DNA from: a virus
DNA length: 15,264 nt
Virus genome (UHGV): UHGV-0370902
Reading direction: 5' to 3' (one strand)
A program made the position numbers and the translations under genes. Shown here piece after piece: positions 13,699 through 14,588 of this stretch. The notes under the pieces are model-generated. The model ran no database searches. It was given only the letters and a program-made list of their open reading frames with translations, and had not been told where the DNA came from. The first letter of the stretch is position 1, and each line of letters opens with the position of its first letter.

Positions 13699-14130
13699 AT
13701 GGATTTAAATAAATTAGAAGCGTTATTAGAAGCATCAGTAAAAAATTTTATCTCAGTACTTGATGAAAAAACTGAAGATATTAAGAAGGCAAATATTGTC
13801 GAACTTGTAAAAACAAGAGCCAGTACATTTGATCATCTTCCTGATGATGTCCGGTCAGCGGCAATTCGCGTATATGTAACGGCACTAAGCAATAGTGAAC
13901 CACCAATTGATGAAGAATCAAGAGATATTCAGAAAAAACGGTTTGAGATGTTAGCCAGCAACATTATCGCTGGTTTCACACGGCTCTTAACAAAAGAGCC
14001 TGCCAGTGAAGCTATTCGCCAGCAGGCTCAGGTAATTATTAATCAGGCAGAAACTATTTCACGTGAGCGAAAAGAATTTCGTAAAGAGGTTTCTGAGCTT
14101 CAAGCATCTCAACCGCAATCCACTATTTAA
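13699..14130 (+). CDS. Hypothetical soluble, predicted helical protein (143 aa), early-left cargo
   Basis: Start at MDLNKLEALLEAS with GAGG RBS, 2 nt after the N stop; AT-rich codon usage; no family recognised. Confidence 0.55.
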   Translation: MDLNKLEALLEASVKNFISVLDEKTEDIKKANIVELVKTRASTFDHLPDDVRSAAIRVYVTALSNSEPPIDEESRDIQKKRFEMLASNIIAGFTRLLTKEPASEAIRQQAQVIINQAETISRERKEFRKEVSELQASQPQSTI

Positions 14131-14138
14131 GGTGATAT

Positions 14139-14588
14139 ATGGAAGAACAAGCAAACAAGATTCTCGTAGAACTACTGCAAAAAGCCAGCAATGGAATAGA
14201 CGCGGCTGTTTCATTCAGCCAGGCACAGATTCCTGATGTTGTTCATCAGTTGCTGCTATGGAATATGGTTGACAGTCTGATTAAAACATTAATAGCCATT
14301 CTAACAATCCCTCTGGTTTTCTGGTTTATGAAGAAGCAGTGCCAAAGAGTTGAGACAGGTAAAATCGGTGATGAAGGATATTCATGGGAGAAGGGAAATC
14401 CCAAATACAGGCCGACAATGGTTTGGGATAGCAAAGGTGATATTAATCTTCTTATCATGCCACTGGTTGGAGTTTTGACTCTGTGGGGAATTTTTATTAT
14501 TGGTGTAGTAACCAATATGACTTGGTTAAAAATTTGGCTGGCCCCAAAGCTTTACCTTATCGAATATGCAGCATCATTGGTTAAGTAA
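14139..14588 (+). CDS. Hypothetical membrane protein (149 aa, at least two predicted TM segments)
   Basis: Hydrophobic stretches LIKTLIAILTIPLVFWFM and INLLIMPLVGVLTLWGIFIIGVV; starts 8 nt after the previous ORF. Confidence 0.55.
   Translation: MEEQANKILVELLQKASNGIDAAVSFSQAQIPDVVHQLLLWNMVDSLIKTLIAILTIPLVFWFMKKQCQRVETGKIGDEGYSWEKGNPKYRPTMVWDSKGDINLLIMPLVGVLTLWGIFIIGVVTNMTWLKIWLAPKLYLIEYAASLVK

What the first reader, a model, noticed from the sequence alone, without database searches (positions are those of the whole stretch)
13699..14588. Uncharacterised two-gene cargo (helical soluble protein plus small membrane protein) between N and cIII
Lambda has ral/sieB/ea10 here; this prophage instead carries an AT-rich, tightly spaced pair that I cannot assign. 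Position directly downstream of N and the membrane partner are consistent with a superinfection-exclusion or abortive-infection module, or a host-takeover function. Function is entirely inferential.
Basis: inference. Interest (0 to 1): 0.6.

Follow-up and report, generated by a model that had tools for sequence, protein, structure and literature searches.

The report
Two unrelated early prophage accessory genes
The two unassigned genes between N and cIII are real, but they are unrelated, independently shuffled early-operon genes that a 306-bp deletion placed side by side, not a defence module: one is a rare fast-evolving helical protein and the other belongs to a widespread uncharacterised phage membrane-protein family.

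Summary
Two intact, AT-rich ORFs lie between a 933W-type N gene and cIII: gene 1 (13699-14130, 143 aa, all-helical, soluble) and gene 2 (14139-14588, 149 aa, two hydrophobic helices). Neither matches Pfam, NCBIfam, PADLOC or a solved structure.

The "two-gene cargo" reading does not hold. Gene 2 belongs to phrog_3054 (the Sf6 gene 34 family), found in 181 phage records, including virulent N4-like and phi92-like phages. It almost always occurs without gene 1: 78 of 80 IMG/VR loci and 129 of 130 complete E. coli genomes. Gene 1 is rare (7 of 5426 genomes, no phage record). It always starts 2 nt after N, and Stx phages carry ral in the same slot.

The 8-nt spacing comes from a 306-bp deletion relative to E. 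coli 09-00049, which removed an antisense ORF.

I found no promoter of their own. The first terminator-like hairpin lies after gene 2, so both genes are probably made with N from pL at infection or induction, not in the lysogen.

Function remains inferred. Gene 2 is most likely a lytic-cycle envelope protein, with Imm-like exclusion the leading guess. Gene 1 is most likely a takeover or anti-defence factor. This is ordinary lambdoid mosaicism of modest interest.

The parts
13036..13064 (+). Presumed pL promoter (TTGATC, 17-nt spacer, TATCTT) inside operator-like repeats. It is the only sigma-70-like site on the + strand between 12900 and 14200.
   Evidence: Relaxed scan at 8 of 12 matches. It lies between the cI-DUF3024-orf177 block and N. 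It is inferred to drive N, gene 1 and gene 2.
13313..13696 (+). Antiterminator N (127 aa, 933W/H-19B type).
   Evidence: PF25694 at 2.1e-15. It is 99.4% identical in DNA to the Stx2a phage Stx2_EH2086.
13689..13701 (+). Junction GAGGTAAtTATG, holding the ribosome-binding site, the N stop codon and the gene 1 start. The same motif recurs at module boundaries after other N alleles.
   Evidence: Compare window 13689-13701 with L019 (GAGGTAAGTATG, present twice) and L020 (GAGGTAAATATG).
13699..14130 (+). Gene 1: a 143-aa acidic (pI 5.3) all-helical soluble protein. It is a composite of an N-terminal helix (aa 1-42), a core (aa 43-97) and a C-terminal module (aa 98-143).
   Evidence: The core occurs alone as 58-60-aa proteins. 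Residues 1-97 occur as 99-aa proteins. The C-terminal module occurs alone as 48-58-aa proteins placed directly after N (L020).
14112..14114 (+). Junction of the 306-bp deletion relative to E. coli 09-00049 (L005 4417-4722), with 3 nt of overlap. It creates the new gene 1 C-terminus ...SQPQSTI*.
   Evidence: Pairwise blastn and the sequences themselves. The deleted stretch holds an antisense 84-aa ORF and two TTTGACTGTGGAAA repeats.
14139..14588 (+). Gene 2: a 149-aa protein with two transmembrane helices, a member of phrog_3054 (Sf6 gene 34 family). Its N-terminal (aa 1-42) and C-terminal (aa 128-149) segments are conserved, and the TM1-loop-TM2 core is hypervariable.
   Evidence: phrog_3054 at 3.7e-64 over the full length. 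Alignments A2 and A3. 50% identity to Sf6 gp34, with near-identical ends. dN/dS of 0.05-0.13.
14593..14620 (+). Terminator-like hairpin followed by a T run. It is the first such site downstream of N and is part of the conserved gene 2 module.
   Evidence: Homology of the module runs through it to 14683 in HF4s, Sf6, the Stx2 phage and L005. Sf6 annotates a tL2A terminator and boundary sequence bsq4 at the equivalent place.
14633..14683 (+). Boundary sequence shared by all related loci, whatever gene lies upstream.
   Evidence: 98-100% matches in L004, L006, L009 and L010, which lack gene 2.
14696..14849 (+). cIII thermoregulator RNA element and the cIII gene (14709-14849). This is the downstream limit of the interval.
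   Evidence: Rfam RF01804 at 88.5 bits. PF02061 at 3.1e-30.

Best explanation
The interval holds two unrelated single-gene modules of the hypervariable, N-proximal part of a lambdoid early-left (pL) operon. It is not a two-gene system.

Shown: an ancestor like the prophage of E. coli 09-00049 carried N, gene 1, an antisense small ORF with repeats, and gene 2. A 306-bp deletion removed the antisense ORF and fused the end of gene 1 to the leader of gene 2, leaving the 8-nt spacing.

Inferred from sequence: neither gene has a promoter of its own. Both lie between N and the first terminator-like hairpin, so they would be transcribed from pL together with N as the earliest products after infection or induction. 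They would be silent in the repressed lysogen.

Gene 2 (shown): it is a member of the phrog_3054 / Sf6 gp34 family and is under strong purifying selection. It is an inner-membrane protein with two transmembrane helices. Its two extramembrane end segments are conserved from enterobacterial to Vibrio and Pseudomonas phages, while the transmembrane-loop core is exchanged freely.

Gene 2 (inferred, about 0.3): it acts at the envelope during lytic growth. The most likely role is to make the freshly infected cell refractory to entry of a second phage genome, as T4 Imm does. The variable core would set specificity or serve only as an anchor.

Gene 1 (shown): it is a rare, fast-evolving, acidic helical composite that occupies the slot where sibling phages carry ral.

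Gene 1 (inferred, about 0.25): it is a small takeover or anti-defence protein that binds a host factor.
For: Independence of the two genes. Gene 1 is present in 7 of 5426 complete E. coli genomes and in none of 50,697 phage records. Gene 2 is present in 130 genomes at 80% coverage or more and in 181 phage records. Only 2 of 80 IMG/VR gene 2 loci carry gene 1. The others have N, ral, a gp36 homologue or the antisense ORF directly upstream, across at least five N alleles.

Deletion. Window 13638-14114 and 14112-14683 map to L005 3940-4416 and 4723-5294.

The ral slot. In the Stx2 phage L003, N is 99.4% and gene 2 is 96.6% identical to the window, and Ral is encoded between them.

Expression. The only + strand promoter-like site between 12900 and 14200 is the presumed pL. 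Gene 1 starts 2 nt after N in every locus. Homology of the gene 2 module starts 10-27 nt before its ATG and includes the hairpin at 14593-14620.

A lytic-cycle role for gene 2. Homologues sit in the early or middle regions of virulent Schitoviridae (FSL SP-076, Vibrio 1.245.O) and of phi92-like myoviruses. The motifs IP(D/E)V..QLL.W and I..APK.YL.EYA are conserved across them.

Selection. dN/dS is 0.05-0.13 for gene 2 and 0.38-0.82 for gene 1.

Gene 1 as a composite. Its parts occur as separate small proteins.
Against: No experiment or named homologue bears on either function. Structure predictions are only moderate (pLDDT 69 and 64), and the fold searches returned generic helical matches.

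The promoter scans are simple consensus scans. Weak or non-sigma-70 promoters, or expression from read-through in the lysogen, are not excluded.

The topology of gene 2 is unresolved. The charge distribution hints that the ends are periplasmic and the loop cytoplasmic, but this was not tested with a dedicated predictor.

The dN/dS of gene 1 rests on 24-38 substitutions, and it also fits a decaying gene.

The Imm-like function is an analogy from size, timing and membrane location only.
Confidence: 0.5

Rival explanations
1. One reading: the two genes form one superinfection-exclusion or abortive-infection module, with a soluble sensor or regulator and a membrane effector that work together.
For: The genes are adjacent, on the same strand and 8 nt apart. 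One is soluble and one is in the membrane. The exact arrangement is stably inherited in one prophage lineage seen in more than 100 index blocks of public assemblies.
Against: Co-occurrence is near zero outside that lineage: 2 of 80 loci, 1 of 130 genomes with gene 2, and 1 of 7 genomes with gene 1. In the one other genome with both genes, 306 bp and an antisense ORF separate them. There is no PADLOC hit and no promoter for expression in the lysogen.
Confidence: 0.07
2. Gene 2 alone is a lysogen-expressed exclusion moron that protects the lysogen, as SieA, HK97 gp15 and Cor do.
For: It is a small inner-membrane protein carried by many temperate phages and ends with its own terminator-like hairpin. 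Its variable central region would fit an arms race.
Against: The conserved module leaves no room for a promoter, since homology starts 10-27 nt before the ATG. No promoter-like site lies upstream. The family is also carried by virulent phages, which have no lysogen to protect. There is no similarity to SieA or SieB.
Confidence: 0.15
3. Gene 2 is an envelope-directed host-takeover or timing factor rather than an exclusion factor. Examples would be a modulator of FtsH/HflKC, of division or elongation proteins, of membrane-bound abortive-infection systems, or of lysis timing.
For: It is expressed early, sits in the membrane and is under strong purifying selection. It is present in virulent phages. 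It lies next to cIII and kil in the window and next to an AAA ATPase gene in phi92.
Against: No neighbour is conserved across phage groups. It is not located in a lysis cassette. No homology supports any particular target.
Confidence: 0.2
4. Gene 1 is not a working gene. It is a decaying fusion remnant of small modules left by recombination downstream of N.
For: dN/dS is 0.38-0.82. Its C-termini are variable and include truncated 99-aa forms. The end of the ORF was created by a deletion. The family is tiny, with 13 representatives among 1.84 billion proteins.
Against: The frame is intact in every copy of this prophage lineage examined. Residues 1-97 are conserved down to 47% identity in distant homologues. 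It has a good ribosome-binding site at a conserved distance from N. An open frame of 143 codons at 38% GC is unlikely by chance.
Confidence: 0.15

Closest known systems
Shigella phage Sf6 gene 34 protein / PHROG family phrog_3054 (also HF4s g00037 'TM helix-containing protein', Phi92_gp220, and hypothetical proteins of CUS-3, HK633 and N7)
   Same: Gene 2 matches the phrog_3054 profile over its full length at 3.7e-64. It is 98% identical to the HF4s protein and 50% identical to Sf6 gp34, with near-identical N- and C-terminal segments. It holds the same place in the pL operon, before a tL2-type terminator and boundary sequence.
   Different: The central transmembrane-loop region is a different variant from that of Sf6 and HK633 (149 aa against 140 and about 121 aa). 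The family has no assigned function, so membership names the gene without explaining it.
T4 Imm (immunity to superinfection; early inner-membrane protein that blocks DNA injection)
   Same: It is small, is predicted to be expressed early, and has two hydrophobic helices. The family occurs in virulent phages. This is a resemblance in kind only, and the properties of Imm are recalled from established knowledge.
   Different: There is no sequence relationship: no Pfam hit at E up to 1, which covers the Imm family. Gene 2 is nearly twice as long and has conserved extramembrane helices. No phenotype is known.
Lambda and P22 SieB (abortive-infection exclusion gene between N/24 and ral)
   Same: It lies in the same genomic interval downstream of the N-type antiterminator. 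SieB is also a membrane protein.
   Different: There is no homology: hhalign probability is 0.3% against lambda SieB and 0.1% against P22 SieB. sieB is annotated on the strand opposite to pL with its own promoter. Gene 2 is co-oriented with pL and has no promoter.
Lambda Ral (restriction alleviation), as the usual occupant of the slot after N
   Same: Gene 1 sits exactly where ral sits in the Stx2a phage Stx2_EH2086, which has 99% identical N and 97% identical gene 2 flanks. Both are small, soluble early pL proteins.
   Different: There is no sequence similarity. Gene 1 is twice as long, all-helical and composite. No anti-restriction activity has been tested.

Membership tests
phrog_3054 / Sf6 gp34 family (gene 2) | Full-length match to the family profile | tested here: met
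   3.7e-64, with residues 1-149 aligned to profile positions 1-137 of 137. 50% identity to Sf6 gp34 at E 2e-40.
phrog_3054 / Sf6 gp34 family (gene 2) | Two hydrophobic helices flanked by the conserved motifs IP(D/E)V..QLL.W and I..APK.YL.EYA | tested here: met
   Hydropathy peaks centred on residues 48-56 and 109-121. The motifs are invariant or nearly so across enterobacterial, Vibrio and Pseudomonas phage members.
SieB (lambda, P22; Pfam SieB) | Sequence homology to SieB | tested here: not met
   No Pfam hit at E up to 1. hhalign probability is 0.3% against lambda SieB and 0.1% against P22 SieB.
SieB (lambda, P22; Pfam SieB) | Own promoter and orientation opposite to pL, allowing expression in the lysogen | tested here: not met
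   Gene 2 is on the pL strand. No promoter-like site lies upstream, even at a threshold of 8 of 12 matches. sieB is annotated on the opposite strand in lambda and P22.
SieA (P22) | Sequence homology to SieA | tested here: not met
   hhalign probability is 3%, limited to a hydrophobic stretch.
T4 Imm-type injection blockers | Block of DNA entry by superinfecting phage | not testable with these tools
   This needs plating, potassium-efflux or labelled-DNA entry assays.
T4 Imm-type injection blockers | Sequence homology to Imm | tested here: not met
   No Pfam family matched gene 2 at E up to 1.
Two-gene defence or toxin-antitoxin-like module (gene 1 plus gene 2) | The two genes are inherited together across genomes | tested here: not met
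   They co-occur in 2 of 80 IMG/VR gene 2 loci. Only 1 complete E. coli genome has both, against 7 with gene 1 and 130 with gene 2. Gene 1 has four different downstream partners.
Two-gene defence or toxin-antitoxin-like module (gene 1 plus gene 2) | Match to a known or candidate defence protein | tested here: not met
   No PADLOC hit at E up to 1 for either protein.
Moron (autonomous promoter-gene-terminator unit) | Own promoter upstream and own terminator downstream | tested here: inconclusive
   A terminator-like hairpin is present after gene 2. No promoter was found and the module leaves no room for one. However, consensus scans cannot exclude weak promoters.
Ral anti-restriction family (gene 1) | Sequence homology to Ral | tested here: not met
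   hhalign probability is 0.05%. Only the genomic slot is shared.

The most novel reading that the evidence does not exclude
Gene 2 would represent an unrecognised, widely distributed class of phage early inner-membrane factors (phrog_3054). The class is shared by lambdoid, P22-like, N4-like, phi92-like, Vibrio and Pseudomonas phages. Two conserved juxtamembrane helices would carry a common activity, either blocking entry of a second phage genome or disarming a membrane-based host defence. The freely exchanged transmembrane-loop cassette would set specificity. Gene 1 would then be an unrelated new anti-defence protein that has replaced ral.
Probability: 0.25. Interest if true: 0.55.

Novelty: new member of a known kind. 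Interest (0 to 1): 0.3.

Why it matters
The immediate value is corrective. A locus that looks like a compact defence pair is in fact two unrelated mosaic cassettes joined by a deletion, so it should not be entered as a candidate two-gene system.

There is also a modest positive lead. Gene 2 belongs to a sizeable family that is absent from Pfam: 516 clusters at 90% identity reached E ≤ 0.001 in the search. The family is carried by both temperate and virulent phages of Gammaproteobacteria. It has an unusual conservation pattern, with near-invariant ends and an exchangeable membrane core, and it is under strong purifying selection. A simple plating and topology study on one member would annotate hundreds of phage genes.

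Gene 1 shows how the position right after N acts as a slot for small, fast-evolving early proteins, and it is a cheap candidate for anti-defence screens.

Tried and rejected
Profile searches:
- Pfam, NCBIfam and PADLOC gave nothing for either protein. PHROGs gave only an unknown-function family for gene 2.
- Scanning the gene 1 sub-modules and their small homologues against PHROGs and Pfam gave only scattered unknown-function hits.

Exhaustive search for gene 1:
- An HMMER search of 1.84 billion representatives found 13 hits, all fragments or relatives of the same small modules.

Structure:
- AlphaFold2 models were of moderate confidence.
- Foldseek against BFVD found only a family member from Pseudomonas phage Bjorn.
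- The afdb50 library was not available.
- Sequence profiles against the PDB gave nothing.

Direct comparisons, all negative:
- Gene 2 against lambda SieB, P22 SieB, P22 SieA and P22 gp17.
- Gene 1 against lambda Ea10, lambda Ral and the 156-aa neighbour seen in relatives.

Conserved neighbours of gene 2:
- I looked in virulent phages and found none. The neighbours were an AAA ATPase in phi92, a protein with a YadA anchor and collagen repeats in FSL SP-076, and unknowns elsewhere.

Literature:
- Full-text searches for accession numbers, Sf6 gene 34/gp34, early-left-operon membrane proteins and pL morons found no functional study.

Considered and set aside:
- A holin or antiholin role for gene 2 was set aside. 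It is in the early operon, far from the Q-dependent late region.

Full report
**What is there**

The last 2.3 kb of the window is the start of a lambdoid early-left operon on the + strand.
- A presumed pL lies at 13036-13064 (TTGATC, 17-nt spacer, TATCTT).
- N is at 13313-13696 (PF25694, 2e-15).
- Gene 1 is at 13699-14130, and gene 2 is at 14139-14588.
- A terminator-like hairpin with a T run lies at 14593-14620.
- The cIII thermoregulator RNA and the cIII gene follow at 14696-14849. Kil and the start of gam come after them.

Upstream on the same strand lies a cI-type repressor (10669-11406). It is followed by a DUF3024 protein and a 177-aa ORF, in the position where lambda has rexAB.

Both ORFs of the finding are therefore real and at the stated coordinates. 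They are the most AT-rich coding stretch of the region: 37.7% and 40.0% GC, against 47.1% for the window.

Gene 1 has no hydrophobic segment, and AlphaFold2 predicts five helices at pLDDT 69. Gene 2 has two clear hydrophobic helices.

**Are they one unit? No**

Gene 1 DNA or protein is absent from 50,697 phage records. It is present in only 7 of 5426 complete E. coli genomes.

Gene 2 is present in 130 of those genomes at 80% coverage or more and in 181 phage records by tblastn.

Among 80 IMG/VR loci that carry gene 2 at 74-100% identity, only 2 have gene 1 upstream. The rest have one of at least five N alleles directly before gene 2, or ral, or a homologue of Sf6 gene 36, or an antisense small ORF.

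Gene 1 in turn is followed in other genomes by several different partners:
- a 156-aa soluble protein;
- cIII;
- an IS element;
- in a single case, E. coli 09-00049, gene 2.

In that one genome the two genes are 306 bp apart. The window aligns to it on both sides of a clean deletion: window 13638-14114 matches L005 3940-4416, and window 14112-14683 matches L005 4723-5294.

The deleted stretch holds three things:
- the last 11 codons of gene 1;
- an 84-aa ORF on the opposite strand;
- two TTTGACTGTGGAAA repeats.

The 8-nt spacing that suggested a coupled pair is thus a deletion scar. It also gave gene 1 a new C-terminus, ...SQPQSTI.

The arrangement is nevertheless stable. Public assemblies index the same protein in more than 100 blocks of the collection, and in every place examined it sits in the same prophage backbone.

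**Gene 2**

It matches phrog_3054 over its whole length at 3.7e-64.
- It is 98% identical to the HF4s 'TM helix-containing protein'. In HF4s that gene follows N directly.
- It is 50% identical to Sf6 gene 34.

No Pfam, NCBIfam or PADLOC model matches it. None of the 120 listed homologues (of 516 found) carries an informative name.

Homologues occur in strictly virulent phages:
- N4-like Schitoviridae of Salmonella and Vibrio;
- phi92-like myoviruses;
- Pseudomonas phages.

In these phages the gene lies among early or middle genes and has no conserved neighbour.

Across all these phages the conserved parts are the segment leading into the first helix (F..Q.IP(D/E)V..QLL.W) and the amphipathic segment after the second helix (I..APK.YL.EYA..L). 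The two helices and the loop between them vary in sequence and in length. The region between the hydrophobic cores measures about 21 to 44 residues.

Between the window and Sf6, the ends are 98% and 88% identical in DNA while the middle cannot be aligned.

Close relatives differ almost only at synonymous sites, with dN/dS of 0.05-0.13.

The N-terminal segment is acidic and poor in Lys and Arg, and the loop is rich in them. This hints that the ends face the periplasm, but I could not test it properly.

Gene 2 shows no similarity to lambda or P22 SieB, P22 SieA or P22 gp17. The fold searches were uninformative.

**Gene 1**

The family is tiny. It has 16 clusters among 5.8 billion proteins, all enterobacterial. 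It has 13 representatives among 1.84 billion.

It is a composite:
- Residues 43-97 occur alone as 58-60-aa proteins.
- Residues 1-97 occur as 99-aa proteins.
- Residues 98-140 occur alone as 48-58-aa proteins, one of them placed 2 nt after a different N allele.
- In one metagenomic contig this last module precedes the rest.

Module starts share the junction GAGGTAAnTATG, which contains the N stop codon.

Gene 1 always begins 2 nt after N. In the Stx2a phage Stx2_EH2086, the flanks are 99.4% (N) and 96.6% (gene 2) identical to the window, and the same slot holds ral.

dN/dS against relatives is 0.38-0.82, based on few substitutions.

**Expression (inferred)**

The tool's scan found no + strand promoter in the region, but it also missed pL. 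A relaxed scan that does recover the presumed pL finds nothing else on the + strand between 12900 and 14200.

In every genomic context, homology of the gene 2 module begins only 10-27 nt before its ATG. The module therefore cannot carry a promoter. It does carry the hairpin at its end.

Both genes lie before the first terminator-like site after N. Both should therefore be made with N at the very start of infection or induction, and not in the repressed lysogen. This, together with the presence of the family in virulent phages, argues against a lysogen-protecting role.

**Most likely function**

For gene 2 I favour a lytic-cycle envelope role. The leading guess is Imm-like exclusion of a second phage genome (about 0.3). 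Modulation of a host membrane protein or of a membrane-based defence comes close behind (about 0.2).

For gene 1 I favour a small host-factor-binding takeover or anti-defence protein (about 0.25). This rests on its slot, timing, charge and rate of change. A decaying remnant is the main rival (about 0.15).

None of these functional statements rests on more than position, architecture and distribution.

**Verdict**

The 'two-gene cargo' interpretation is not supported. The region is an ordinary example of lambdoid mosaicism. One gene belongs to a large uncharacterised family that would repay a simple experiment.

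Noticed in passing
window 11444-11785 (+) and 11975-12508 (+): Between the cI-type repressor and pL, where lambda has rexAB, lie a DUF3024 protein and a 177-aa ORF. The DUF3024 protein matches the PADLOC candidate defence family PDC-S43 at 7e-42. The 177-aa ORF has no family. A hairpin at 12507-12530 follows them. This pair is a better candidate for prophage-expressed defence than the finding itself.
   Followed up: partly
window 5849-8755 (-): A 968-aa replication protein (Toprim primase domain plus AAA_25 helicase-type ATPase) is interrupted by Hint and LAGLIDADG domains. This suggests an intein with a homing endonuclease inside a prophage replication gene.
   Followed up: no
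window 4221-4420 (-), with 2367-3137 (-) and 3463-4167 (-): Rfam finds a C4 antisense RNA, its a1/b1 target and isrK next to two antirepressor-type genes (ORF6N with P22_AR_C, and ORF6N with ANT/KilAC). This looks like a P1/P7-style secondary immunity region in a lambdoid prophage.
   Followed up: no
window 829-981 (-) and 1203-1826 (-): Two tRNA genes lie downstream of a Q-type antiterminator gene, at the start of the late operon.
   Followed up: no
L005 4356-4722 (E. coli 09-00049). Also L007-L011 4287-4469 (-), L021 3356-3610 (-) and L022 3287-3469 (-).: Relatives carry a 60-84-aa ORF antisense to pL, convergent with and overlapping the end of gene 1. Two TTTGACTGTGGAAA direct repeats lie upstream of it. 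It has the position and orientation of sieB but is small and soluble. It co-occurs with gene 1 more often than gene 2 does, and it is deleted in the window.
   Followed up: partly
window 13689-13701; L019 about 1070-1085 and 1185-1200; L020 about 1525-1540: The motif GAGGTAAnTATG (ribosome-binding site, stop codon of the preceding gene, start codon) recurs at the joints between N and the small modules that follow it. It may serve as a recombination boundary.
   Followed up: partly
L015 2927-3889 (Salmonella phage FSL SP-076): The gene after the gene 2 homologue in this virulent N4-like phage encodes collagen triple-helix repeats and a YadA-like outer-membrane anchor, although it is annotated 'tail protein'. 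It would be a trimeric-autotransporter-like protein encoded by a phage.
   Followed up: no
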